Positions 4,577 to 55,405 of a stretch of 64,000 nucleotides of DNA are shown here, one piece after another. Both the position numbers and the translations under genes were made by a program. Numbering within the stretch: the first letter of the stretch is position 1; every line of letters begins with the position of its first letter. The DNA is from a virus, in IMG/VR virus record IMGVR_UViG_3300045988_115142; one strand, 5' to 3'. A model generated the notes under the pieces. It searched no databases. It worked only from the letters and a program-made list of their open reading frames with translations, and was not told the DNA's origin.

Positions 4577-4706
4577 TATATATCATCCTTTCATTAAACG
4601 AAACGGGGGTATTTTAGTAATTTTACTACTATGTTTTTGTAATCTATTTGTACCGGCACATCATTATAAAATGCGAAAGTTTATAATTTTTAATAGGAGA
4701 ATAAAA

Positions 4707-5048
4707 ATGGCTAATTTATTAAAAGAGACTCTAGAAGTATTAGATAATTTAGGGATAAAAGAAGAAGAAGTAATATACGTTGTTAATAGAGAGAAACCTA
4801 AAGATTGTAAGTTTATGACTTGGGAAATGTTTAAGGATATAGCTAGATATAAAACATACGATGAAGGTCTTGGTACTGTTGAGGTTAATACCGATATTAT
4901 CATCTATACTGTCGACTATATTCTATACCGTCATGAATATGATGGGGCAGAAAGATGGGAAGAAATCCCAACACCAGAACACATGCACGAATTATTATCC
5001 GGTAAATCACCAGAAATATTCTCTATTGATGGTCATGATTTTTACTAA
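4707..5048 (+). CDS. Hypothetical protein
   Basis: Track ORF 4671..5048. The ATG at 4707 has TAGGAGA upstream at good spacing, so the MANLLKETLE... form is preferred. No motif recognised. Confidence 0.7.
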   Translation: MANLLKETLEVLDNLGIKEEEVIYVVNREKPKDCKFMTWEMFKDIARYKTYDEGLGTVEVNTDIIIYTVDYILYRHEYDGAERWEEIPTPEHMHELLSGKSPEIFSIDGHDFY

Positions 5049-5870: not shown

Positions 5871-6379
5871 TAAGATATATAGTCGGTTATTCTATGACTA
5901 TACAAAAACTAAGATGGTTTGCTCCTATTCTTTACTCTATAGTATTATGGTTCTATACTCTTAGCTTCAAATCCACTATAAAGCGATTATTTAAGAGAAA
6001 TAATCTCTATTGGGCAGCATTATGGACTTTTGAGTTAAGTAAAAATAATACTAAGACACATAGCCTATATCTAAATAAACCTATTGGTAGTAAGCTTAAG
6101 TATAATATGATTAGGTTTGTAGGACCAAGTTATAAAGTAACTAAAGATGATATGTACTTTATCGATATCGGTATATTTAGAAACCGTTTGATGAGATATA
6201 AGGTCTGTCCTTATGATGATGATAGAGTTTCTTGGTCATTATATGAATTAAAACCGAATAGGTATATAGATTCAGGTAATTATAGATTACCTCAATTAGA
6301 ATCTGAAATAACCAATGAGTTAGTAGAAATATGTGTACAACTATTCTTAGAACAAGCTAATGAAATTTATAATAAGTAA
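5852..6379 (+). CDS. Hypothetical protein with N-terminal hydrophobic segment
   Basis: Track ORF with AAGGAG 6 nt upstream of the ATG. Overlaps the upstream gene by 19 nt. Hydrophobic stretch LRWFAPILYSIVLWFYTLSF. Followed by a strong terminator. Confidence 0.7.
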   Translation: MVERILIRYIVGYSMTIQKLRWFAPILYSIVLWFYTLSFKSTIKRLFKRNNLYWAALWTFELSKNNTKTHSLYLNKPIGSKLKYNMIRFVGPSYKVTKDDMYFIDIGIFRNRLMRYKVCPYDDDRVSWSLYELKPNRYIDSGNYRLPQLESEITNELVEICVQLFLEQANEIYNK

Positions 6380-6395
6380 TTTTGCGAAAAAGCCT

Positions 6396-6419
6396 CCGTT
6401 ACCAGATATCTGGTAACGG
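6396..6419 (+). terminator. Intrinsic terminator (perfect 24-nt palindrome CCGTTACCAGAT/ATCTGGTAACGG plus T-run)
   Basis: Perfect inverted repeat read directly, followed by GACTTTTATC. Lies 17 nt after the stop of 5852..6379. Confidence 0.8.
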
Positions 6420-6442
6420 GACTTTTATCATAAAATTCTCTT

Positions 6443-6460
6443 CCGGTTTTTCTAAACCGG
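6443..6460 (+). other. Second small hairpin CCGGTTT-TTCT-AAACCGG
   Basis: 7-bp stem with a 4-nt loop, read directly. No clear T-run, so the role is unclear. Confidence 0.5.
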
Positions 6461-6516
6461 CAAAATAAACCAAGAACCAAGAATTGACTTATAAAGTTTG
6501 TAGTTAATTCTATAGA

Positions 6517-6546
6517 TTGAGATAATCTACAGTGTGTATTTATAAT
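6517..6546 (+). promoter_or_regulatory. Candidate sigma-70/SigA-type promoter (TTGAGA - 18 nt - TATAAT) pointing into the ORF-free region
   Basis: -35 TTGAGA at 6517-6522 (5/6 to TTGACA) and consensus TATAAT at 6541-6546 with an 18-nt spacer. It lies downstream of the terminator. Such matches can occur by chance in an AT-rich genome. Confidence 0.4.
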
Positions 6547-6862
6547 GTATTTAGCTTTTTTCTGATTTGTCTTATATATGATTTTGATAAGTTTACAGTT
6601 TATCTAAAATAAATAAGAAATGTGGTTAAGTCTAATTCTATTACATCATCTTATTCCATATCAAAAATATAAAAGGTAATGTGATGTTTTGCGAATATGA
6701 ATAAAATGAAGGGTTCTTGGTTATGAATTATTAGAAGTATAACAGGGTAATCGTTTAGATTGTTGTTTGACGTATTATAAATGAAAGATGGTCTAAATCG
6801 TTACCACAATTATATTCTAATTATTTATATGTAAATTGATGTAATAAAAAATAAAGTAGGGT

Positions 6863-6886
6863 GGTCTACTCCATATGGAGTAGACC
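6863..6886. other. Perfect 24-nt palindrome GGTCTACTCCAT/ATGGAGTAGACC inside the ORF-free region
   Basis: Read directly. Not followed by a T-run on the + strand. Confidence 0.6.
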
Positions 6887-6901
6887 GAGTACACACATCA
6901 T

Positions 6902-7021
6902 TAGTTTGGAGCAGCAATGTACGCTTAAGGAAGAAGATACTAGTTTGGCATTAAACGTACAGTATTAAGAGTCATGTTAAGTAGTGTAAGACAGAAAGGT
7001 CCACAAGGAGCTTTAGTTTGG
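6902..7021 (+). repeat. Three direct copies of TAGTTTGG (6902, 6941, 7014)
   Basis: Exact 8-mers within 120 nt. An inverted partial copy CAAACTAAAG at 7030-7039 pairs with the third copy. Confidence 0.6.
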
Positions 7022-7339
7022 CCATCAAACAAACTAAAGTATTATATTATCTATAAGGAAAGTTACTATAAACGAACAACAGTAGTTATTTAAGCATAGG
7101 AGTTTTTATAGACCTGATTTTAAATATGTTAATCAACTAAAAACCATATTTAAAACCAACACGAACGGTCTATATCATGTCAAGTATCTTTTTAGTCAGC
7201 AGGCTAAAAACGAATATAAACTAATCACCAAATTTATATTCTTGTAAGTTCACATTTGTTATGGCTGTGTAAAACAAAATGTGACTGATTAAGGTATATA
7301 TTTTATAAGAGGAAACAAAACTAGTATCTTTCTTCCTTA
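6926..7339 (+). ncRNA. Candidate structured RNA domain (~410 nt): 21-bp closing helix around five local hairpins; class unknown
   Basis: 6926-6946 (TAAGGAAGAAGATACTAGTTT) pairs with 7318-7339 (AAACTAGTATCTTTCTTCCTTA), with one bulged T. Enclosed hairpins: 7011-7020/7030-7039 (10 bp); 7107-7114/7167-7174 (8 bp) containing 7118-7128/7145-7155 (11 bp); 7189-7195/7204-7210 (7 bp); 7213-7220/7233-7240 (8 bp); 7250-7257/7277-7284 (8 bp). There are stops in all frames. Strand is assumed from flanking genes and the upstream promoter. Confidence 0.4.
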
Positions 7340-7420
7340 CAATATAGTTCTCAAATTAAAATGTAAAGTTGCTCTAACACGACCATAAGAGACACTTTAA
7401 GACAATTTTAGGGGGATAAT

Positions 7421-8545
7421 ATGCAAGATTTTTTCGTTGAAGCCCATATATCGGATATACATTTTGGAGCTATGGATCCAAAAGAGCAATATAAACTGTT
7501 AAAAGACCAATTCATAGATCGGCTTATGACCCTACCGATTCTAGATATAGTATCGGTTAATGGTGATATTTTTCATCATAAATTTATGGCTAACTCTGAG
7601 TCTGTTTCGTTAGCTTGTTATTTTATTTCTGATTTGATCAAAGTATGTGCAATCAAAAATGCTACATTGTTAATTATTGCCGGTACTTACTCCCATGATG
7701 CGGATCAAATAAAATTATTCTACCCTATGGCTGAACAAGCTATAGCAAATGGGACAGACGTTCGGATTATCGAAGAAGTTAAATTCGAAACAGTCAAAGG
7801 TAAAAGAATTCTATGTATTCCAGAATTATATGGAAAAGGTTCTGAATACTATGAGCAATTCTTATACCAATCTGGATTCTATGATGCATGTTATATGCAT
7901 GGTACATTCGTAGGTGCTATCTTTGGTAAAGATATACCTAATTTGAATTCAGATAGAGAACCAGTATTCTATATGGATCATTTCAGACACTGTGCTGGTC
8001 CAATTATATCTGGTCATGTGCATACACCTGGGTGTTATGCAAAACATTTCTACTATTGTGGTTCTCCATATAGATGGCAATTTGGTGAGGAAGAAGAAAA
8101 AGGATTCATCATCATGATGCAAGATATGAGAACTCGACAATATGCCGTTCATTATGAACCAATCATATCTGATAAGTATATTACTATCAATATGGATTCC
8201 ATGATTAATGGAGACCCTAAAGATATGATAGCATATATTGCTCAAACTATGAAAGAAGAAGATATTAAATATCTTCGAGTTCGATTTACTGAGAGCAATC
8301 CAGAGAATTTAGAGATTATTCAGACATTTTATCGGAATAATCCTAACGTAAAAATCGAAACTAAAATTCATAATGACAATATAGTACAGAATCTTCAAGA
8401 GATTCAAAACGAGTACGAAAATTATGATTATCTATTCGATAAGAATATTACGCCGGAGAATAAATTGGTTCGATATATTAATCAATCCGAGGGAAGCGTA
8501 TTTTTGACTTACGAAGATTTAATCGGAATCTTACAAAATATTTAA
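7421..8545 (+). CDS. Mre11/SbcD-like metallophosphoesterase nuclease (T4 gp47-like)
   Basis: Calcineurin-like phosphoesterase motifs in canonical order: ISDIHFG (DxH), VNGDIFH (GD), IIAGTYSHD (GNHD variant), MHGTF and ISGHVHTPG (GHxH). SD GGGGGA upstream. Confidence 0.7.
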   Translation: MQDFFVEAHISDIHFGAMDPKEQYKLLKDQFIDRLMTLPILDIVSVNGDIFHHKFMANSESVSLACYFISDLIKVCAIKNATLLIIAGTYSHDADQIKLFYPMAEQAIANGTDVRIIEEVKFETVKGKRILCIPELYGKGSEYYEQFLYQSGFYDACYMHGTFVGAIFGKDIPNLNSDREPVFYMDHFRHCAGPIISGHVHTPGCYAKHFYYCGSPYRWQFGEEEEKGFIIMMQDMRTRQYAVHYEPIISDKYITINMDSMINGDPKDMIAYIAQTMKEEDIKYLRVRFTESNPENLEIIQTFYRNNPNVKIETKIHNDNIVQNLQEIQNEYENYDYLFDKNITPENKLVRYINQSEGSVFLTYEDLIGILQNI

Positions 8546-28116: not shown

Positions 28117-28142
28117 CCCATAACCTAATATTAGGTTATGGG
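28117..28142 (+). terminator. Intrinsic terminator, perfect 26-nt palindrome
   Basis: CCCATAACCTAATATTAGGTTATGGG followed by TTATCTTTTATT. Confidence 0.8.
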
Positions 28143-30427: not shown

Positions 30428-31531
30428 TTATTTATCAAGGTAATAGTCAACACCACGAACTTGGTTGTTATTGGTATCAGAACGTTGTTTATCAAAACTT
30501 TTCTTGATATCGGATTTAGCACGTTGTACAATATAGTTATCATCGTCATCTTTGAGATATTGTTCGATAGTCTTTTCGATCTTTTTGATATCCTCTTGGA
30601 TTTTCTTCTTATCGGAAGGTTTAAGAGTTTTATTGTGCTTCAATTCATATTCAAGATATGTAATTACATCAGCAGCACGTTCACCGAAGTCTGGATGCGT
30701 TTTTACATCAGATAAAGTATTGATGAAAATTCTTAGTTCGAATAAAGCTTTATCAAAGAAGTTCAAATCTTCAATACGAGATGTTGTTTGTCCAGAACGG
30801 AAATCATTTAATCTATCTTCAGTAATTTTAAGAACTTGAGGAATGAAAGAACCATAACCAAACATAGAAGCAAATTGGTCAGCAAAAGTTTCTTTCTTCC
30901 ATACACGGTCTTTCAAACCTACATATACTTTACCAAATATATTGTAAAGCACATTACTGGTCAAAAGTAAACGCTTTCTTTCAGCACCAAGTAAATTGAA
31001 ACGAGAAAGAGTTTGATAAATACTTTCTACAGTTTCTTCACGATGCATAACCATACGGAATTGTTTTTCAAATGTATGACCAATCTCATGTAAGATTGTA
31101 GCCATACCTAACTTAGCATCTTTACATTTACGAAGGAAGTTAGTATTTAAATAAATATCAACCCATGGTTGATATTTATCATTGAATTTAAAGGTACCTT
31201 TATTCATATCAATACTGACTACTTTACGGACGCTAGCTAGGTTATCTTGTGCAAAGAAACCAGTAGGCATTGTCCATCGAATAGATGCTGGTCCGCATTC
31301 GGAACTCAATACTATATCGGATTTATAATAGAATCCAAATTGGTCACATAGAGAGTTGCACATAATTTCTAATTTATCTCTAAAGAAATCCATGTTTTTG
31401 TCTGTAATAGACTCTTTAAGTAATCTATCGATAATATCTTGTAAAGCTTTTTCTGCTTTAAAGATAGGCTTAGGAATATTCGAAAAATACGCTTCAAGAT
31501 AATATTCTTGCTCAAAATCTTTATAATCCAT
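30428..31531 (-). CDS. Zn-metallopeptidase-like protein (HExxH)
   Basis: ATILHEIGHTFE contains the canonical HExxH motif. AGGAGG upstream on the minus strand. Family not determined. Confidence 0.6.
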   Translation of the reverse strand: MDYKDFEQEYYLEAYFSNIPKPIFKAEKALQDIIDRLLKESITDKNMDFFRDKLEIMCNSLCDQFGFYYKSDIVLSSECGPASIRWTMPTGFFAQDNLASVRKVVSIDMNKGTFKFNDKYQPWVDIYLNTNFLRKCKDAKLGMATILHEIGHTFEKQFRMVMHREETVESIYQTLSRFNLLGAERKRLLLTSNVLYNIFGKVYVGLKDRVWKKETFADQFASMFGYGSFIPQVLKITEDRLNDFRSGQTTSRIEDLNFFDKALFELRIFINTLSDVKTHPDFGERAADVITYLEYELKHNKTLKPSDKKKIQEDIKKIEKTIEQYLKDDDDNYIVQRAKSDIKKSFDKQRSDTNNNQVRGVDYYLDK

Positions 31532-32525: not shown

Positions 32526-32600
32526 TAGTGAATTTAACTGTATATTATATTCTTGATAAGTCTATTGAAAATTTAAATATAGAAAAGGAGGTGTAGACTT

Positions 32601-33593: not shown

Positions 33594-33607
33594 AAAGGAA
33601 TTTGAAA

Positions 33608-34759
33608 ATGCTATTAAATGCAAAAGTAATTGGCATTGGTGCAGCTGGTAACAAAGCTACTATTGCCTTATTTAAGAAATATCCTGAGATTGCTAAGGAT
33701 ATGGTTTTAATCAACTCTACGTTAAAAGATATTCCAGAAGAATATCATGACCGTGCTATTGAATTAGATGGTGAATATCGTGGTTGTGCTAAAGAACGTA
33801 CAATTGCTAATCAAATGATGGTAGATACTCTTAAGAGTGGTCATTTCGAATATGAAAAAGACCCTAAAGATTGTATGACTATCATTGTTACATCTTCTGA
33901 AGGTGGTACTGGTTCTGGTGCATCTGTACTTCTAGCAAACTACTTGCACAAAGTACATGGTACACATATCCACTTCTTCGTATTCACTGGTTTTGAAGAC
34001 GACGTTCGTGGATTAAAAAATACAGTAGATCTATTCAAAGAAATGGATGATAGCTTTACAGTAGAAGCTTTATCTAACAAATCTTTCTTAGAAGCTGCTG
34101 GTAATAATCGTTTACGTGCAGAACAATTAGCAAATGAAAAGTTTGCTGATAACGTAAACATCTTATTAGGTGGTACTATTAATAAATCTTCTCAAAATAT
34201 TGATGAATCCGATTTGTTAAAAACTGTACGTACACCTGGTTTTATGTATATTGACCGTGTCAATATGACTAAAATCAAAAACTCTGATGATTTCAACCGT
34301 CGTATTACTGAAGTAATTGATGATATGAAATCTTTAGAAACCCAACCATCTGCAAAGCGTATCGCTACAGTTCTTGATGTAAAAGAACGTGCATTAGAAT
34401 TCATTGACTTTGGTTATGAAGTTATTAAGAAACGTTTTGGTATGCCTTTCGAAGCATTCTCTCATGTGCAAGACTTACATGAACCTGAATACTTAGATAT
34501 TATTGTATCTGGTTTGAAAATGCCTATCAATGAAATCGAAAAGACATACGAAGATTTCAAAGAACGTTCTAAGTTTGTAGATACTACAGCTGATGACTTC
34601 TTCAACAAAGAATATGCTACTAATGCAGATATCTTTGATACACTTCAAGCAGATGCAACACCGGCAGATGTAGACGCTGCCAAAGATGACTTCTTTAAAT
34701 CTCTTGGTAAAGATAAAAAAGAAGAATCTAAGAAAATTAAAGTTGTACAAGACTTTTAG
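33608..34759 (+). CDS. Tubulin/FtsZ-superfamily GTPase (PhuZ/TubZ-like phage tubulin)
   Basis: T1-loop VIGIGAAGNK, tubulin signature T4-loop SSEGGTGSGAS (GGGTGSG), T7-like NIDESDL, and a charged C-terminal tail (...AAKDDFFKSLGKDKKEESKKIKVVQDF). ATG 33608 is preferred over TTG 33602. Confidence 0.8.
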   Translation: MLLNAKVIGIGAAGNKATIALFKKYPEIAKDMVLINSTLKDIPEEYHDRAIELDGEYRGCAKERTIANQMMVDTLKSGHFEYEKDPKDCMTIIVTSSEGGTGSGASVLLANYLHKVHGTHIHFFVFTGFEDDVRGLKNTVDLFKEMDDSFTVEALSNKSFLEAAGNNRLRAEQLANEKFADNVNILLGGTINKSSQNIDESDLLKTVRTPGFMYIDRVNMTKIKNSDDFNRRITEVIDDMKSLETQPSAKRIATVLDVKERALEFIDFGYEVIKKRFGMPFEAFSHVQDLHEPEYLDIIVSGLKMPINEIEKTYEDFKERSKFVDTTADDFFNKEYATNADIFDTLQADATPADVDAAKDDFFKSLGKDKKEESKKIKVVQDF

Positions 34760-34783
34760 AGTCAAACTAAAGGAAGAACATTT

Positions 34784-34807
34784 CCCATACCCAATATTGG
34801 GTATGGG
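34784..34807 (+). terminator. Intrinsic terminator, perfect palindrome
   Basis: CCCATACCCAATATTGGGTATGGG, extendable by an outer helix (AGGAAGAAC/GTTCTTTC), followed by a T-rich tract. Confidence 0.8.
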
Positions 34808-34840
34808 AGTTCTTTCGCAAAATCTATAAGGGGGTAAAGT

Positions 34841-35491
34841 ATGATATATAGTAAACTTAATACTACACGAGATGGTAGAAAACCAAAAGATGTATTGTTT
34901 AGTGATACGTATACCGATGGAACTGAGAAAGATGTATTATTACGGTTCTTGAATAAATATGATGATAGGGATGAAATAGATATAGACGATATATCTAAAT
35001 TAATAGCTATATCAGCACTAAACGTTAAGTATAAGCTTAGAGGTAAGGGTATAAAGCATTATCTTAGTCCTCGTACTATTGATGGTAAATTACGTAGAAC
35101 AATCAACAGAGCTTCTATTGCTCAAATTAAAGAAATAGTACATGATAGAACTATCAATAAAGAATTCCGAGGGGAATTATTAGAATTCTTAGATGATAGA
35201 GTAAATCCATCTAGCCCAAATTATGGTATTCCATTTAATCTTAACGATAACTGTACTTGGGATGATTACGATTTTAAAGAGGAATTCTCTGATTGTAAAA
35301 TCAAAGACTTATTTAAACTTGGTCTGACTAGAGGAATTATTAGAGTTCCTACTAAAGAGGAATATCTGAATAATTTACTACGTTCCCATAATTTACCATA
35401 CAGGGTAAGTTGCACTGGTAAAGGCAATAAACCAATATTCAAGGTTTATGAAGTCAAACCAGAACTTATGGTTATTAAAATTTATAGATAG
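34841..35491 (+). CDS. HTH-containing protein, paralog A of a tandem triplet
   Basis: Shares two blocks with the next two genes: DEIDIDDISKLIAISALNVKYKL (excisionase/MerR-like HTH pattern) and CKIKDLFKLGLTRGIIRVP...LPYRV. Confidence 0.65.
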   Translation: MIYSKLNTTRDGRKPKDVLFSDTYTDGTEKDVLLRFLNKYDDRDEIDIDDISKLIAISALNVKYKLRGKGIKHYLSPRTIDGKLRRTINRASIAQIKEIVHDRTINKEFRGELLEFLDDRVNPSSPNYGIPFNLNDNCTWDDYDFKEEFSDCKIKDLFKLGLTRGIIRVPTKEEYLNNLLRSHNLPYRVSCTGKGNKPIFKVYEVKPELMVIKIYR

Positions 35492-35502
35492 GAGAAATTA
35501 CT

Positions 35503-36231
35503 ATGGATGCAAAGGAAATCAAACTAAGAGAAGAATTAGATTCCATTGACGAAACTATGGCTTTAAAAAGAAGAGAAATAGAAGATCTTAAAAAGAAAAA
35601 AGAAAAGCTAAAAGTAGAACTCGATGATCATATGTATACCAATATGAATACATTGATTTACAACTCCTTAAAATCCGATGACCCGGCTATTGAGTTATTA
35701 AATATGGCTAATGATAAAGACGAATTATCTTTAGATGATGCTGCATTTATTCTTGGTATCACTCCAAATACACTCAGAGCTAGAGTAGATTCTGATCATA
35801 TAAAGAAATATCGTAGATATGATGCTCATAATACAATAATGAGTAGACTTGAAGTTGGATATATCAAATCCCTTCTCGATATGAAGAAGTCCGATCCAAA
35901 GATTCGTGAATGTGTAAAATACATTCTAGAATTTTATAATATTACCGGATTTCCTCTTTCTATATCGACACCATTGAAAGAGTTAGAGGCTCCTATTAAG
36001 CAGTTTAGAAGTTATAGAGACATGACAGTTTGCGATCTGATAGCTAAAGGATTTGGTCGTGGTCTCATTACATATCCTCAACACAATACAGTAGAACGTA
36101 TGCTTTATTCGTATAATATTGGTTATAGATTGGGATGGTTGAGATCCAGTTTAAGGGGTCGTACCGTATATAAAAGCATTAAAGATGATACAGTAAGACC
36201 AATTAGTGTTTATATTAATAAGGAGAAATAA
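35503..36231 (+). CDS. Coiled-coil plus HTH protein, paralog B
   Basis: N-terminal heptad-like KLREELDSIDETMALKRREIEDLKKKKEKLKVELDD. HTH block DELSLDDAAFILGITPNTLRARV. Second block MTVCDLIAKGFGRGLITYP...IGYRL. Confidence 0.7.
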   Translation: MDAKEIKLREELDSIDETMALKRREIEDLKKKKEKLKVELDDHMYTNMNTLIYNSLKSDDPAIELLNMANDKDELSLDDAAFILGITPNTLRARVDSDHIKKYRRYDAHNTIMSRLEVGYIKSLLDMKKSDPKIRECVKYILEFYNITGFPLSISTPLKELEAPIKQFRSYRDMTVCDLIAKGFGRGLITYPQHNTVERMLYSYNIGYRLGWLRSSLRGRTVYKSIKDDTVRPISVYINKEK

Positions 36232-36232
36232 G

Positions 36233-36940
36233 ATGGACTTCAACTCAAGAGAAGATTTACAAAAAGAATTGAAAAAGGTAGACGATGATATAGCGAAAGC
36301 AGAAATAAATCTTACTACTTTACGTCTATATAGACAAACTATAGCTGACCGATTAAGTCAAGTAATGGAAAGTAAATGTAAGATTGTCAACGTTGGAGAT
36401 TTCGACGGCTCTATAGATCCTATCAAAGCTTGTTTAAATTCTTTAAATGATTCTGATGAAATTAGAATCGAAGATGTGTCTTACATGTTTGGTATCTCTG
36501 TGGCTGTATTATTGACTAAGATCGATACTAAAGAATTGAGAGTATTCAAATACTCCAATAAAAGAAATAGCCGTACTGGTAAAGTATTGACAGTAAAATA
36601 CATAAAGAAACTCTTAGAAGAACATAATAGCGATGATATCAAAAAGCGTAAATATGTAGAATATATATTTAAAGAGTATCATGAAAATGCTATGTCTTTA
36701 AATATTAAGAGTAGAGTAAAAGACCTACTATATAAACCTTATGATAATCCTGAGTATGAAAATTTGACTCTAAAACAACTAATCATTGGTGGTTTTAATC
36801 GTGGGTTTATTAAGTTTACTCACTATAATACTATGATTAAGATGCTTGATTCTTTCAACTGTGAGTATACTCTAGATTATTCTTCTTACAGAGTTATGGA
36901 AAAATCTACAAATAAACTAATTAGGGTATATTCTAAATAA
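36233..36940 (+). CDS. Coiled-coil plus HTH protein, paralog C
   Basis: The ATG at 36233 is preceded by AAGGAG. N-terminal REDLQKELKKVDDDIAKAEINLTTLRLYRQ. HTH block DEIRIEDVSYMFGISVAVLLTKI. Second block LTLKQLIIGGFNRGFIKFT...CEYTL. Confidence 0.7.
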   Translation: MDFNSREDLQKELKKVDDDIAKAEINLTTLRLYRQTIADRLSQVMESKCKIVNVGDFDGSIDPIKACLNSLNDSDEIRIEDVSYMFGISVAVLLTKIDTKELRVFKYSNKRNSRTGKVLTVKYIKKLLEEHNSDDIKKRKYVEYIFKEYHENAMSLNIKSRVKDLLYKPYDNPEYENLTLKQLIIGGFNRGFIKFTHYNTMIKMLDSFNCEYTLDYSSYRVMEKSTNKLIRVYSK

Positions 36941-36945
36941 TATAT

Positions 36946-36969
36946 TGGGAGCTGAATATTCAGCTCCCA
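36946..36969 (+). terminator. Intrinsic terminator, perfect palindrome
   Basis: TGGGAGCTGAATATTCAGCTCCCA followed by TATTTTTATTTTTTATTTTTT. Confidence 0.85.
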
Positions 36970-36992
36970 TATTTTTATTTTTTATTTTTTAA

Positions 36993-37049: not shown

Positions 37050-37889
37050 ATGAACGGACAATTCGCCACAACAGGGCGATATACATTTGAACAATTACTA
37101 GTCATGATGGCTGATATAGATACTATGTCTTATCATGAACTTTATCGTATCTTGGAAAACTATTATCATGTCATTCTAGAACATTTAGAAGATAGACATT
37201 CTAAGAAGTTAATACCTCTTTATGGTTCACCTAAATTCTTATTCACTCTTCTTCAAGTATTGAATAATACAGAAAGAAGTTCTGAAAGATGTAGATTGGT
37301 AAACACATTCCTTAGAAGTACTTTATTCTCTGAGAATGGACCATATATCCGAGATATTGCTTACTTGATTGCTAAGTTCTATAATTATGACACAGTAGCA
37401 AGATTAGAAGCATTAGGTACATTAGATGAAGAATTATGTATCTATCTCTCTATTATTTCTAAAGCATCTATTAGAGATTATGTGAATATCAACCGCATCA
37501 ATTACACTATCTGCTCCTTTACTAATAGAGATTTAACTCCTATGGAGATAATTCAAATCTATAACGTTCTTTACCCTAGAAACTTTACTGATGTATTCAT
37601 CAACTCTATGGCAAATGATATAGTGGATACAGAGACAACTGATCCATCTATACTTCCAAGAGCTTTACTTATCGAAGAGTCTCTCAAACAAGCCGTATGT
37701 ATGATTTTAGAAACATTCGATACTGGTATTATCTCTCAAATACTTATTTCTTATAATGAGTATTGTATGTTTAATGGGAAGAAATCTCCATCTATTCTCA
37801 AGTACTGTTCTGATAAACTAGGGTATCCTTTCCTCAAAGTTCCTATCATCGTTAGAGAACTAGAAAAGCAAGATATCTTTATCGGATAG
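37050..37889 (+). CDS. Hypothetical protein
   Basis: Track ORF with TAAGGAGA upstream. No motif recognised. Confidence 0.75.
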   Translation: MNGQFATTGRYTFEQLLVMMADIDTMSYHELYRILENYYHVILEHLEDRHSKKLIPLYGSPKFLFTLLQVLNNTERSSERCRLVNTFLRSTLFSENGPYIRDIAYLIAKFYNYDTVARLEALGTLDEELCIYLSIISKASIRDYVNINRINYTICSFTNRDLTPMEIIQIYNVLYPRNFTDVFINSMANDIVDTETTDPSILPRALLIEESLKQAVCMILETFDTGIISQILISYNEYCMFNGKKSPSILKYCSDKLGYPFLKVPIIVRELEKQDIFIG

Positions 37890-53458: not shown

Positions 53459-55405
53459 ATGGCAATCGTAGGCTCTACAGATAATGCTAATAAAGAGATT
53501 CTTCGTGGTTACGAACAAGACTCCATGCATGAAACTGCTGCTCGCTTTGTTGAATTAGCACGTGCAGCTAAACAAGAATCCGGCTTGGATATCTTCAATA
53601 ACCCAACAGAATTCTTAACTAATAACCTTGGTAAAGAAGATCTTAAATCTTTCTTCGTAAACGAATCTTACGACGCAGAAGATCCTCGTTTCAAAGGCAA
53701 CTCCGCTGCTCTTCGTTCTCACTTAGAAAACATGGAAATGTTGTTCGAAAACGACGTACAAGCAGCTGTTACTGAATCCACTAACTTGGGTGCATTGTCC
53801 CCAGTAATCGGTATGGTAACACCAATCCATAAAAATATCTTGATGAACGCTGTTTATGATCAAGTAATGCCAAAAGACGTTTCCCGTAGCCCTAAATTCA
53901 CTTTGACTATGGAAACTCGTAACTTGGTTGATACTAAAGGCAACAAAATCGATATGTATGCTGAACAAAACTTGATCAAGAAAGCTATCGATGAATCCGT
54001 TCCTACATTCGACAAAGTTATCACTACTTTGCCTGAACAAGAAGCTACTGACTTCGTTGCTGAAGCAGTTGCAGCTAATGTAATTGACGCTTCCGTTCAA
54101 TCCATTGCTAACCTTTCCATGCGTACAGAAGTTTTTGGCGTTGTAGTTAAAAACGTATACGTAGAAAAAGGCGAAATGGTTTGGGATGCTACTCAACAAA
54201 AAGAAGTTCCTGCTACAGCAGCTGGTGCTAACTCCGTATTGTTCAAATTACATGCATTCTTCACTCCTGGTTATGGCGACCATGTTCGTCAAATGCATCG
54301 TGCATTCATGATTTCCTTCAAGAAAAATGCTACTGATACAGTAACTGCTTCTGGTACAATCATGGGTTACTTGAATGAAAAGAACCGTATGTTGCTTCAA
54401 TGTGGTCCATTGAAAGTTAAAGACGGTGCTACTGAAGCATTCGATACTACTACTTTCTTGGTAGAAGCACTTGTTGTTCGTGCTGTATTTGATGTATCTT
54501 CCGCTGCATTCCCAACTGTTAAAGTTGAATGGTCCAGTACTACAGATATCTTCCAAATTCCAGAAGCTCCACATGTAACTGTACCTATCACTCCAGAAGA
54601 AGTTAAAGACGTTCAAGCTCTTTATGACGTAAACCAAGTTACAAAACTTATGTCCATGATCCGCCTTGCTCTTCTTCATTGGAAAGATGATTCCATCCGT
54701 GATGATCTTGATGCTTCTTACTTGGCTATGCCTGAATCCAAACAATACAAAGCAGCATTTGACTTCACACCTCCAATTAACTTCACTGGTCTTCCAGTAG
54801 TATGGCGTAATGGTCAATTCATGGATCGTTTGGAAACTATGGTTACTGAAATGCTCCAAGAATTGAATGATGAAAACATGACTATCGCTATCTTCGGTCG
54901 TCCTGACTTGATCCGTCGTATTGCTCCTCAACAATACACTTATCAAACAGCTTCCAACATCGGTCCTGTTGAATTAGACTTCACTCGCACTGTTGTTACT
55001 TCCGAACATCGTGTATACAACTTCATCTCCACTAACAAAATGCGTAACAACAATAACTTCGTAGTATTGTTGATTCCTCGTAACTCCATGCGTATTACTT
55101 ACAAAGTGGTAGATTACCAAATGTACTTAAGCAACGAAATTCGTGATGCTCGTCAAACTGCATTGCCAGCTATGACTGCATTCGAACGTTGGTTATTCTT
55201 ACAATATCAACCTGTTCAAGGACGTATGCATATTATGAATCCTACTGGCTTACGCAACAACCCTGAAGACGACGTTAAAGACTTCATCGGTGCTAATGCT
55301 ATGAACGATTACACTGCTAACCGTGCAGATTATGCTAACGAAGTTAACGGTGTAGTTGATCCAGCTACAGGTCACTTCCAAATTCCACCTATCAAAACTA
55401 ACTAA
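53459..55405 (+). CDS. Abundant virion structural protein, probably major capsid protein
   Basis: 648 aa with a strong SD. Codon usage is markedly shifted towards CGT/GCT/GGT/GTT/TTC/AAC compared with its neighbours. Preceded by the polyacidic scaffold-like gene and followed by a strong terminator. Identity is by context only; tail sheath or another abundant protein is not excluded. Confidence 0.4.
   Translation: MAIVGSTDNANKEILRGYEQDSMHETAARFVELARAAKQESGLDIFNNPTEFLTNNLGKEDLKSFFVNESYDAEDPRFKGNSAALRSHLENMEMLFENDVQAAVTESTNLGALSPVIGMVTPIHKNILMNAVYDQVMPKDVSRSPKFTLTMETRNLVDTKGNKIDMYAEQNLIKKAIDESVPTFDKVITTLPEQEATDFVAEAVAANVIDASVQSIANLSMRTEVFGVVVKNVYVEKGEMVWDATQQKEVPATAAGANSVLFKLHAFFTPGYGDHVRQMHRAFMISFKKNATDTVTASGTIMGYLNEKNRMLLQCGPLKVKDGATEAFDTTTFLVEALVVRAVFDVSSAAFPTVKVEWSSTTDIFQIPEAPHVTVPITPEEVKDVQALYDVNQVTKLMSMIRLALLHWKDDSIRDDLDASYLAMPESKQYKAAFDFTPPINFTGLPVVWRNGQFMDRLETMVTEMLQELNDENMTIAIFGRPDLIRRIAPQQYTYQTASNIGPVELDFTRTVVTSEHRVYNFISTNKMRNNNNFVVLLIPRNSMRITYKVVDYQMYLSNEIRDARQTALPAMTAFERWLFLQYQPVQGRMHIMNPTGLRNNPEDDVKDFIGANAMNDYTANRADYANEVNGVVDPATGHFQIPPIKTN

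What the first reader, a model, noticed from the sequence alone, without database searches (positions are those of the whole stretch)
34841..36940. Three tandem paralogs (coiled-coil plus excisionase-like HTH) immediately downstream of the tubulin gene: candidate filament-DNA adaptors
The three consecutive genes share two alignable blocks. Block 1 is DEIDIDDISKLIAISALNVKYKL / DELSLDDAAFILGITPNTLRARV / DEIRIEDVSYMFGISVAVLLTKI, which has the pattern of MerR/excisionase-type helix-turn-helix motifs. Block 2 is DLFKLGLTRGIIRVP..LPYRV / DLIAKGFGRGLITYP..IGYRL / QLIIGGFNRGFIKFT..CEYTL. Paralogs B and C additionally start with heptad-like charged helices, while A lacks this. In type III (TubZ) segregation systems the tubulin works with a small DNA-binding adaptor (TubR). 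In phage c-st it also works with TubY, an HTH plus coiled-coil modulator. A triplicated, diverged HTH/coiled-coil set in the same operon position after a phage tubulin has not, to my knowledge, been described. It could represent adaptors coupling filaments to distinct DNA sites, and the palindrome family is an obvious candidate target.
Basis: partly seen in the sequence, partly recalled or inferred. Interest (0 to 1): 0.65.

Follow-up and report, generated by a model that had tools for sequence, protein, structure and literature searches.

The report
Hypervariable DNA-binding paralogs beside phage tubulin
Three neighbouring genes next to a jumbo phage's tubulin gene are real duplicates that probably bind DNA, but they look like a fast-diversifying, lineage-specific accessory family rather than an essential partner of the tubulin.

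Summary
ORFs A (34841-35491), B (35503-36231) and C (36233-36940) are paralogs (BLASTP 2e-24, 2e-8, 2e-5). They share an excisionase/MerR-type winged HTH and a basic C-terminal domain. B and C also have an N-terminal coiled coil.

The adaptor interpretation is not supported:
- The family occurs only in one narrow clade of uncultivated ~254-kb AR9-like jumbo phages. An exhaustive search of 1.84 billion representative proteins gave 9 hits.
- The tubulin subfamily has more than 838 metagenomic relatives.
- Four sister clades keep the same backbone (glucosaminidase, tubulin, slot, g279, UvsX, RNAP beta, ligase) but lack A/B/C. Their slot is empty or holds two tandem Bro-N genes.
- Within the clade, tubulin is 98-99% identical while A, B and C fall to 53, 35 and 42%. 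Each has 5-6 old allele classes that reassort independently.
- No similarity to TubR or TubY goes beyond a generic HTH.
- The AATATT palindromes are gene-end hairpins with compensatory changes, and they also occur in clades lacking A/B/C.

Most likely these are oligomeric, allele-diversified DNA-binding accessory or conflict proteins sitting in a recombination hot spot. A tubulin-adaptor or incompatibility role remains possible (about 0.1).

The parts
33608..34759 (+). Divergent tubulin/FtsZ-family GTPase (context gene). The likely start is ATG 33608 (383 aa), although the ORF lister gives TTG 33602.
   Evidence: Pfam Tubulin E=5.5e-6 and PHROG PhuZ E=1.8e-6. The GGTGSG signature is present. 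Related contigs aa. Identity is 98-99% across the clade.
34783..34808 (.). Perfect 26-nt palindrome (13-bp stem, AATATT centre) between the tubulin gene and A. It is a terminator-like or attenuator RNA hairpin.
   Evidence: Its position is conserved, with a compensatory C/G to T/A change in L001, and equivalent hairpins exist in clades lacking A/B/C.
34841..35491 (+). Paralog A (216 aa). It has no coiled coil. It has a winged HTH at about residues 45-92 (nt 34973-35116) and a C-terminal alpha/beta domain.
   Evidence: AF2 model pLDDT 69. It has 5 allele classes with 53-98% identity.
35503..36231 (+). Paralog B (242 aa). Its parts are a coiled-coil helix at residues 3-46 (nt 35509-35640), an invariant acidic DxDE..D motif (nt 35713-35739), a winged HTH at residues 74-117 (nt 35722-35853) and a basic C-terminal domain at residues 176-237 (nt 36028-36213, net charge +7).
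   Evidence: AF2 pLDDT 85.7, pTM 0.76. Charges come and heptads. It has 5 allele classes with 35-100% identity.
36233..36940 (+). Paralog C (235 aa). It has an N-terminal coiled coil, a winged HTH at about residues 77-121 (nt 36461-36595) and a C-terminal domain.
   Evidence: It has 6 allele classes with 42-99% identity.
36946..36991 (+). Perfect 24-nt palindrome followed by a long T-rich run. It is the likely intrinsic terminator closing the A-B-C unit.
   Evidence: In L004 and L006 the stem changes compensatorily, from TGGGAGC..GCTCCCA to GGAGAGC..GCTCTCC.
37050..37889 (+). g279, a conserved gene of unknown function that marks the downstream edge of the variable slot.
   Evidence: Orthologs follow the tubulin gene directly in L018 and L019, and follow the slot in L017 (phmmer 9e-35, 3e-24, 9e-18). 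There are no Pfam, PHROG, PDB or GenBank-phage matches.

Best explanation
A, B and C are a lineage-specific, tandemly duplicated family of oligomeric DNA-binding accessory proteins.

Proposed anatomy and mechanism:
- An Xis/MerR-type winged HTH reads DNA.
- A strongly basic C-terminal alpha/beta domain adds a second nucleic-acid contact.
- The N-terminal coiled coil of B and C (and of the fourth paralog in one lineage) multimerises the protein.

The genes sit in a recombination-prone accessory slot between the conserved tubulin gene and g279/UvsX. Each gene exists as several old, deeply diverged allele classes that reassort independently on an almost identical genome backbone. That is the signature of specificity determinants kept diverse by frequency-dependent selection.

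I infer that they act on allele-specific DNA targets in phage-host or phage-phage conflict, such as host takeover, exclusion of relatives or private regulation. This would be analogous to the tandem Bro-N genes that fill the same slot in a sister clade. I do not think they are obligatory partners of the tubulin.

Shown here: paralogy, fold, restriction to one clade, hypervariability with independent assortment, and absence from sister clades. Inferred: DNA binding, oligomerisation and the conflict role.
For: - Paralogy and architecture.
- HTH assignment.
- Basic C-terminal domain (+7) and overall pI of about 9.
- Restriction to one clade: 5 hits by word-based search, 33 by profile, 9 among 1.84e9 representatives, none in GenBank phages and none in GTDB genomes.
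- Hypervariability: A 53-98%, B 35-100% and C 42-99% identity, against tubulin 98-99%, UvsX 95-100% and RNAP 89-100%.
- The nucleotide identity drops are bounded by gene edges.
- Divergent alleles have dS of 0.4-1.5 against about 0.01-0.75 in the flanking genes (median about 0.15), and omega of 0.13-0.52 against 0.00-0.42 (at most 0.15 in every flank except the glucosaminidase gene).
- There are 5-6 allele classes per gene, in combinations A1-B5-C1, A1-B1-C1, A1-B5-C5 and A5-B1-C6.
- Copy number is 3 or 4.
- In sister clades the slot is empty or holds two tandem Bro-N genes.
- About 32 kb of other window sequence stays at least 90% identical in the same genomes, apart from one small indel gene.
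Against: - No DNA-binding or expression data exist.
- The HTH matches are all below curated thresholds, and no Foldseek hit reaches E<=0.001.
- The wHTH segment of B is net acidic because of the invariant DxDE..D cluster. That cluster could be a protein-binding patch instead.
- No omega above 1 was found, so an arms race is inferred from allele structure, not from positive selection.
- No candidate DNA target was identified.
- Persistent adjacency to the tubulin gene within the clade, and probable co-transcription, leave a tubulin link open. There is no recognisable promoter in the 31-nt gap after the hairpin.
Confidence: 0.5

Rival explanations
1. Tubulin-DNA adaptors, sharpened. The paralogs would be centromere-binding proteins that couple phage genomes to tubulin filaments. 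The invariant acidic motif would contact the conserved tubulin, and the variable surfaces would read lineage-specific DNA sites, so the allele classes would act as incompatibility determinants between co-infecting relatives.
For: - The genes lie immediately downstream of the tubulin gene in all 17 or more clade genomes.
- There is no clear separate promoter.
- The HTH plus coiled-coil composition recalls TubY.
- A conserved motor beside fast-diverging DNA-binding partners is what plasmid partition systems show (my own knowledge).
- An invariant DxDE..D cluster sits in otherwise variable proteins.
Against: - hhalign finds nothing against TubR, and only 21 HTH columns against TubY (probability 0.9%).
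- The domain order is inverted relative to TubY and there is an extra domain.
- Tubulin orthologs at 47-63% identity with the same synteny lack any homolog.
- The tubulin C-terminal tail motifs are conserved in those clades too.
- There are no iteron or centromere-like arrays in the window.
- The 6380-7420 region does not co-vary with alleles.
- Conserved synteny within the clade carries little information, because the whole region is collinear.
Confidence: 0.1
2. Protein-binding anti-defence or host-takeover factors. The HTH fold would serve as a scaffold, the invariant acidic patch or DNA-mimicking surface would bind a conserved partner, and the variable surfaces would track diverse host proteins.
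For: - The wHTH region is net acidic and has an invariant acidic cluster.
- There is allelic diversity with independent assortment.
- The genes sit in an accessory slot.
- C has few basic residues in its putative recognition helix.
Against: - The wings and the C-terminal domain are strongly basic.
- There is no match to PADLOC families or known anti-defence families.
- The fold is the classic DNA-binding topology.
Confidence: 0.15
3. Ordinary phage transcription regulators, such as temporal-switch or autoregulatory factors for the phage RNA polymerases, with no conflict role.
For: - The HTH plus oligomerisation architecture fits.
- The genes lie inside the replication and transcription module, next to non-virion RNAP beta and UvsX.
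Against: - Core regulators should be conserved along with their polymerase. Here the RNAP subunits are 89-100% identical while A/B/C fall to 35-54%.
- The genes are absent from sister clades that have the same RNAP genes.
- AR9 has no counterpart.
Confidence: 0.12
4. Selfish mobile genes, such as free-standing homing-endonuclease-like cassettes, inserted between conserved genes.
For: - The position is intergenic, between highly conserved genes.
- The mosaic is bounded by gene edges.
- The slot content varies between clades.
Against: - No nuclease domain or fold was found.
- All three genes are present, full-length and under purifying selection in every clade genome (omega 0.13-0.52). This differs from the presence/absence pattern typical of homing genes.
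Confidence: 0.04

Closest known systems
Excisionase/MerR-superfamily winged HTH domain proteins of phages (Pfam HTH_17, e.g. Xis, BldC, Cox-like)
   Same: - The topology is beta-alpha-alpha-beta-beta with the 'LT..EAA..LG.S..T' pattern.
- Weak HTH_17 and PHROG-66 matches.
- The family profile retrieves a true HTH_17 protein.
- Foldseek gives local hits to MerR-like and excisionase phage proteins, and to BldC and Cox.
   Different: - All matches are below the curated cut-offs.
- The proteins are 3-4 times larger, with an N-terminal coiled coil, a helical linker and a basic C-terminal domain that has no detectable relatives.
- There is no integrase or recombination context.
TubY (MerR-like modulator of type III TubZRC partition, e.g. 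c-st CST188, pBc10987 TubY)
   Same: - It contains a MerR-like HTH and a coiled coil.
- It is encoded near a tubulin-family gene.
- TubY lies downstream of tubZ in phage c-st.
   Different: - The domain order is reversed. TubY has an N-terminal HTH, then a C-terminal tetrameric coiled coil and a Lys-rich amphipathic tail. B and C have an N-terminal coiled coil, then the HTH, then a folded C-terminal domain.
- hhalign probability is 0.9% over 21 columns.
- No TubR or tubC is present.
- The genes are absent from sister tubulin-bearing clades.
TubR (centromere-binding protein of type III partition)
   Same: It is a winged-helix DNA-binding protein linked to a tubulin homolog.
   Different: - There is no sequence similarity, and TubR is not among the top Foldseek PDB hits.
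- TubR is about 80-100 aa and is encoded upstream of tubZ, next to iterons.
- Here the proteins are 216-242 aa and encoded downstream, with no iterons.
Bro-N multigene families of large DNA viruses and phages
   Same: - They are tandem, lineage-specific, variable paralogs with a DNA-binding domain.
- Two tandem Bro-N genes occupy exactly the same tubulin-g279 slot in a sister clade (L017).
   Different: There is no sequence or fold relationship. The analogy is positional and evolutionary only.

Membership tests
TubR (type III partition centromere-binding protein) | Sequence or structure similarity to TubR winged-helix dimers | tested here: not met
   hhalign of the family profile against c-st CST190 gave probability 0.25% over 14 columns. 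No TubR chain appears in the Foldseek PDB top 50 for models of B or A.
TubR (type III partition centromere-binding protein) | Small protein encoded upstream of tubZ, next to tubC iterons | tested here: not met
   The genes lie downstream of the tubulin gene and encode 216-242 aa. No tandem or direct repeat arrays were found in the window or in 6200-7600.
TubR (type III partition centromere-binding protein) | Binds the tubulin C-terminal tail | not testable with these tools
   No multimer prediction or experiment was available. Indirectly, the tail is invariant and its motifs persist in clades without A/B/C.
TubY | N-terminal MerR-type HTH, followed by a C-terminal tetrameric coiled coil and a Lys-rich amphipathic tail | tested here: not met
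   The architecture is described in PMC7762940. B has its coiled coil at residues 3-46, its HTH at 74-117 and a folded C-terminal domain. A has no coiled coil.
TubY | Detectable homology to TubY | tested here: not met
   hhalign against c-st CST188 aligned only 21 HTH columns, with E=0.061 and probability 0.9%.
Excisionase/MerR-like winged HTH (Pfam HTH_17) domain | Score above the Pfam gathering threshold | tested here: not met
   The best member scores about 15-17 bits against a cut-off of 27. Six of 16 members match at E<=1.
Excisionase/MerR-like winged HTH (Pfam HTH_17) domain | beta-alpha-alpha-beta-beta winged-helix topology and structural similarity | tested here: met
   The AF2 model of B has E74-76, H77-84, H88-94, E100-104 and E112-117. 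BFVD hits to MerR-like and excisionase HTH proteins have probability 0.75-0.94 and rmsd of about 3-4 A over 50-60 residues. BldC 6ama has TM 0.63 normalised to the target. All E-values are above 0.01, so the similarity is at domain level and moderate.
Excisionase/MerR-like winged HTH (Pfam HTH_17) domain | Transitive sequence link to bona fide members | tested here: met
   The family profile hits P0038 at E=1.4e-5 in 1.84e9 proteins. P0038 passes the HTH_17 cut-off (28.2 bits against 27).
MerR family transcription factors proper | N-terminal wHTH plus a long C-terminal antiparallel dimerisation helix and an effector site | tested here: not met
   The domain order and content differ. No member gave a Pfam MerR match: PF00376 is absent from the family list, and its only hit (E=0.019) is to the outgroup protein P0038.
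Bro-N family | Pfam Bro-N domain | tested here: not met
   A, B and C give no Bro-N match. Bro-N is found only in the L017 slot genes.
RepE-like tandem winged-helix initiators | Two WH domains superposable on RepE | tested here: not met
   RepE54 recurs in the Foldseek lists, but with probability 0.02-0.08, TM of about 0.17 and rmsd of about 15 A.

The most novel reading that the evidence does not exclude
The paralogs are allele-specific centromere-binding adaptors for a phage tubulin. An invariant acidic DxDE..D patch would dock on the ultra-conserved tubulin, while hypervariable HTH and C-terminal surfaces would read lineage-private DNA sites. The independently reassorting allele classes would then be incompatibility groups that keep co-infecting relatives from hijacking each other's positioning or segregation machinery. 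That would be a diversifying kinetochore-like layer in a jumbo phage.
Probability: 0.08. Interest if true: 0.8.

Novelty: new member of a known kind. Interest (0 to 1): 0.38.

Why it matters
If the best explanation is right, this is a new, unannotated family of phage DNA-binding accessory proteins. It marks a recombination hot spot in an uncultivated group of AR9-like jumbo phages that, unlike AR9/PBS1, encode a tubulin. The family is useful as a marker of strain-level diversity and as a candidate conflict locus, but it is not a new mechanism.

Two results matter for anyone studying phage tubulins. The tubulin subfamily is widespread and does not travel with these genes. The conserved neighbour g279 is a better candidate for a tubulin-linked function.

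If the minority reading (allele-specific adaptors) were true, it would give the first example of diversifying centromere-binding proteins for a phage cytoskeleton.

Tried and rejected
1. GenBank phage searches with the DNA, with B, with the tubulin and with g279 found nothing.
2. Whole-protein Foldseek against PDB gave no hit with E<=0.001. The recurring RepE54, menin, KH-tandem and RPC62 hits have TM below 0.25 and were rejected.
3. The PDB profile hit 8vd6 (E=1.4e-5) is a de novo designed repeat protein that matches through three sub-threshold repetitive stretches, so it is spurious.
4. The weak Pfam AbiJ_NTD4 (3 members, best E=0.018), HTH_Mga, SigZ and PADLOC mad1/CasR matches are all far below cut-offs. 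I read them as generic HTH signals only.
5. A nuclease reading of the invariant D..DxDE..D..K residues was rejected. They lie in the loop and first strand of the wHTH, not in a PD-(D/E)xK or other nuclease fold.
6. AR9 early (AAATATATATTAT) and late (AACA-N6-TA/G) promoter consensus scans gave no informative site upstream of A.
7. A search for centromere-like repeats, and for co-variation of the 6380-7420 region with allele class, was negative.
8. Scans of GTDB genomes with the tubulin and with the family profile found nothing, so no host was identified.
9. A sliding-window dN/dS search for positive selection found no window above 1.
Full report
**Observation**

The window is the replication, transcription and nucleotide-metabolism module of a jumbo phage. 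It encodes:
- DnaB-like and Dda-like helicases
- GyrB- and GyrA-like topoisomerase subunits
- an NrdD anaerobic ribonucleotide reductase
- dUTPase
- a UvsX-like recombinase
- split multisubunit RNA polymerase beta subunits
- an NAD-dependent ligase
- a DNA polymerase, a GroEL-like chaperonin and a primase

.

A divergent tubulin-family gene (33602/33608-34759) is followed by three co-oriented ORFs: A at 34841-35491 (216 aa), B at 35503-36231 (242 aa) and C. C most plausibly starts at ATG 36233, giving 235 aa.

Pairwise BLASTP gives B-C 2e-24, A-B 2e-8 and A-C 2e-5. A family alignment with orthologs has 13 invariant columns. These include a D..L....DxDE....D cluster leading into the HTH and an L...G..RG motif in the C-terminal part. 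No further member exists in the window.

**Structure and domains**

AlphaFold2 on a 16-sequence alignment gives a confident model of B (pLDDT 85.7, pTM 0.76). The model contains:
- one long helix (residues 3-46)
- a beta-alpha-alpha-beta-beta winged helix (74-117)
- linker helices (118-148)
- a C-terminal alpha-alpha-beta-beta-beta domain (176-237)

The model of A is weaker (pLDDT 69). It shows the same core without the long helix.

The N-terminal segments of B and C have canonical heptads, with 75% L/I/V/M at a/d positions.

The HTH assignment rests on converging but individually modest evidence:
- Pfam HTH_17 matches 6 of 16 members, all below the gathering score.
- PHROG 66, an excisionase family, matches at E=0.005.
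- The family profile retrieves one outside protein at E=1.4e-5 among 1.84 billion. That protein passes the HTH_17 cut-off.
- Foldseek against BFVD returns mostly MerR-like and excisionase HTH phage proteins, with probability 0.75-0.94 over 50-60 residues.
- BldC, SoxR and P2 Cox appear among the PDB hits.

No whole-protein structural match is significant. The proteins have a pI of about 9. In B, the C-terminal domain carries a net charge of +7. The wHTH segment is slightly acidic because of the invariant acidic cluster.

**Distribution**

The family is extremely restricted:
- A word-seeded search with B found 5 proteins.
- A profile search found 33, all A- or B-type orthologs.
- An exhaustive HMM scan of 1.84 billion representatives found 9. 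All come from the same phage clade except the generic HTH_17 protein.
- GenBank phages, GTDB genomes, IMG/VR and JGI metagenome contigs add only the same clade.

Every clade genome is a contig of about 250-255 kb with identical synteny. The order is dUTPase, GyrA-like..., RNAP-beta-like 246 aa, a 42-aa ORF, glucosaminidase, tubulin, A, B, C, g279, UvsX, RNAP beta 816 aa, NAD ligase. One lineage (L006) carries a fourth paralog of 255 aa with a coiled coil. It is inserted between the tubulin gene and A.

The closest cultured phages by RNAP beta and UvsX are AR9/PBS1, at 34-36% identity. The AR9 region examined around UvsX keeps UvsX, non-virion RNAP beta and ligase but has no tubulin gene, and the window tubulin finds no tblastn match in any GenBank phage.

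**Linkage to tubulin**

The tubulin subfamily itself is widespread. It has more than 838 hits, many at 44-67% identity, on contigs of 230-310 kb.

I examined four sister clades:
- L017 (tubulin 63% identical): the backbone is kept, but the slot between tubulin and the g279 ortholog holds two tandem Bro-N genes of 143 and 161 aa.
- L018 (57%): a g279 ortholog follows the tubulin gene directly.
- L019 (55%): a g279 ortholog also follows the tubulin gene directly.
- L020 (47%): UvsX follows the tubulin gene directly.

An unfiltered hmmsearch of the family profile against all ORFs of these four loci found nothing; the best E-value was 0.66.

The tubulin C-terminal tail motifs are a DDFF motif, a Lys-rich stretch and a terminal acidic-aromatic residue pair. 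They are conserved in these clades as well. The tubulin therefore does not depend on A/B/C. The adjacency seen within the clade is uninformative because the entire region is collinear.

**Hypervariability**

Across 16 clade loci the flanking proteins are nearly invariant, whereas the three paralogs are not:

| Protein | Identity to the window across the clade |
|---|---|
| Tubulin | 98-99% |
| RNAP beta-like 246 aa | 97-100% |
| UvsX | 95-100% |
| g279 | 90-100% |
| RNAP beta 816 aa | 89-100% |
| A | 53-98% |
| B | 35-100% |
| C | 42-99% |

The nucleotide identity drops are sharply bounded by gene edges. Only B drops in L001, only C drops in L007, and all three drop in L016.

Divergent alleles have dS of 0.4-1.5, against about 0.01-0.75 (median about 0.15) in the flanking genes of the same genome pairs. 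Their omega is 0.13-0.52, against 0.00-0.42 in the flanks; it is at most 0.15 in every flank except the glucosaminidase gene. No window exceeds 1.

Each gene has 5-6 allele classes among 17 genomes. The classes combine freely, for example A1-B5-C1, A1-B1-C1, A1-B5-C5 and A5-B1-C6. This is the pattern of old alleles shuffled by recombination onto a homogeneous backbone. It is not recent positive selection, and it is not a co-adapted three-protein set.

About 32 kb of other window sequence stays at least 90% identical in the same genomes. The exception is a 125-aa gene that is present in some genomes and absent in others.

**Palindromes and candidate DNA sites**

The window carries about a dozen perfect 24-26-nt palindromes centred on AATATT. 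Several have a CCCAATATTGGG core. They lie 6-25 nt after stop codons, and most have T-rich tails.

Two of them bracket the A-B-C unit, at 34783-34808 and 36946-36969. The second is followed by a long T run.

Across lineages they keep their positions and change by compensatory substitutions. Equivalent hairpins with different stems occur in L017 and L018, which lack A/B/C. They therefore behave as RNA hairpins (terminators or attenuators), not as cognate protein sites.

Other candidate sites were also negative:
- There are no tandem-repeat or iteron arrays in the window.
- The noncoding region at 6380-7420 contains only weak repeats.
- That region stays 90-99% identical in genomes that carry different A/B/C alleles.

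Only 31 nt separate the first hairpin from the start codon of A, and no promoter-like motif lies there. In contrast, a TATATAATAT-type motif precedes several other genes, and an AR9-early-like motif lies at 32536. Co-transcription with the tubulin gene by read-through is plausible. It is also uninformative, given the uniformly co-oriented gene block.

**Comparison with TubR and TubY**

I fetched the tubR-tubZ-tubY region of phage c-st. hhalign of the family profile against TubY aligns only 21 HTH columns (probability 0.9%). Against TubR it aligns nothing meaningful.

TubY has an N-terminal MerR-like HTH, then a C-terminal tetrameric coiled coil and a Lys-rich amphipathic tail (PMC7762940). B and C have the reverse order plus a folded C-terminal domain, and A lacks a coiled coil. 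The membership tests for TubR, TubY, MerR proper, Bro-N and RepE all fail. Membership of the broad Xis/MerR-like winged-HTH domain class is supported at domain level.

**Conclusion**

The most likely explanation (confidence about 0.5) is this. A, B and C are oligomeric, sequence-specific DNA-binding accessory proteins in a recombination-prone slot. They are kept as diverse, independently reassorting allele classes because they serve as specificity determinants in phage-host or phage-phage conflict or in private regulation. Tandem Bro-N genes in the same slot of a sister clade provide a positional analogy.

The rival explanations are:
- a protein-binding anti-defence role (0.15)
- ordinary transcription regulators (0.12)
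- tubulin-DNA adaptors or incompatibility determinants (0.10)
- selfish homing-type genes (0.04)

The adaptor model is not excluded, because physical interaction could not be tested. It has lost its main comparative support. The finding is a real and novel gene family of a known general kind, and its interest is moderate.

Noticed in passing
window 33602-34759: The tubulin is very divergent. It has no tblastn hit in 50,697 GenBank phage records and no PDB sequence hit. It nevertheless has more than 838 metagenomic homologs (44-67% identity) on 230-310 kb contigs. No tubulin gene lies upstream of UvsX in AR9, one of the closest cultured relatives. This points to a large uncultivated group of tubulin-encoding AR9-like jumbo phages. 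The start codon is probably ATG 33608 (383 aa), not TTG 33602.
   Followed up: partly
window 37050-37889 (g279): This gene of unknown function is conserved directly downstream of the tubulin gene in sister clades (L018, L019) and after the variable slot in L017. It has no Pfam, PHROG, PDB or GenBank-phage match. It is a better candidate than A/B/C for a conserved tubulin-linked function.
   Followed up: partly
L017 9396-10320: In a sister clade (tubulin 63% identical) the same tubulin-g279 slot holds two tandem Bro-N domain genes of 143 and 161 aa. An unrelated family of DNA-binding paralogs has therefore independently occupied the slot.
   Followed up: partly
L006 10001-10768: A fourth family member (P0037, 255 aa, with a coiled coil) is inserted between the tubulin gene and A in one lineage. 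Copy number therefore varies between 3 and 4.
   Followed up: partly
window 19711, 28117, 30392, 34783, 36946, 48409, 56609, 62493, 63915 (and others): A family of perfect 24-26-nt palindromes centred on AATATT, several with a CCCAATATTGGG core, lies just after stop codons and mostly has T-rich tails. Their positions are conserved and they show compensatory changes across lineages and clades. They are likely intrinsic terminators or RNA-stability hairpins. Some abut the next start codon (for example 28117-28142 against ATG 28138).
   Followed up: partly
window 11584, 14452, 16140, 24243, 39259, 44785; also 32536: An AT-rich motif, TATATAATAT, recurs in 5-6 intergenic regions upstream of genes. 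AACTGTATATTAT at 32536 resembles the AR9 early-promoter consensus AAATATATATTAT. These are possible phage RNA polymerase promoters.
   Followed up: no
window 4671-5048: This 125-aa ORF is present in some genomes and absent in others. It has no counterpart in contig IMGVR_UViG_3300045988_076500 (L042) and is 84-85% identical in others. It is the only other strongly variable spot in window 1-20500.
   Followed up: partly
window 30428-31531 (minus strand): An M48-peptidase-like gene is the only minus-strand gene in this block. It is more variable than its neighbours in the deeper lineages (66-88% nucleotide identity in L003, L004 and L006).
   Followed up: no
window 53459-55405: This 648-aa ORF, in a locally GC-richer region (0.39), has no Pfam or PHROG hit. 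It matches PDB 7x30 'Major structural protein ORF12' at E=2e-10, so it is a structural gene embedded in the replication module.
   Followed up: no
window 6380-7420: This roughly 1-kb stretch has no ORF of at least 110 aa. It contains two perfect 24-nt palindromes (6396-6419, 6863-6886) but no iterons. It is 90-99% identical across the clade genomes compared.
   Followed up: partly
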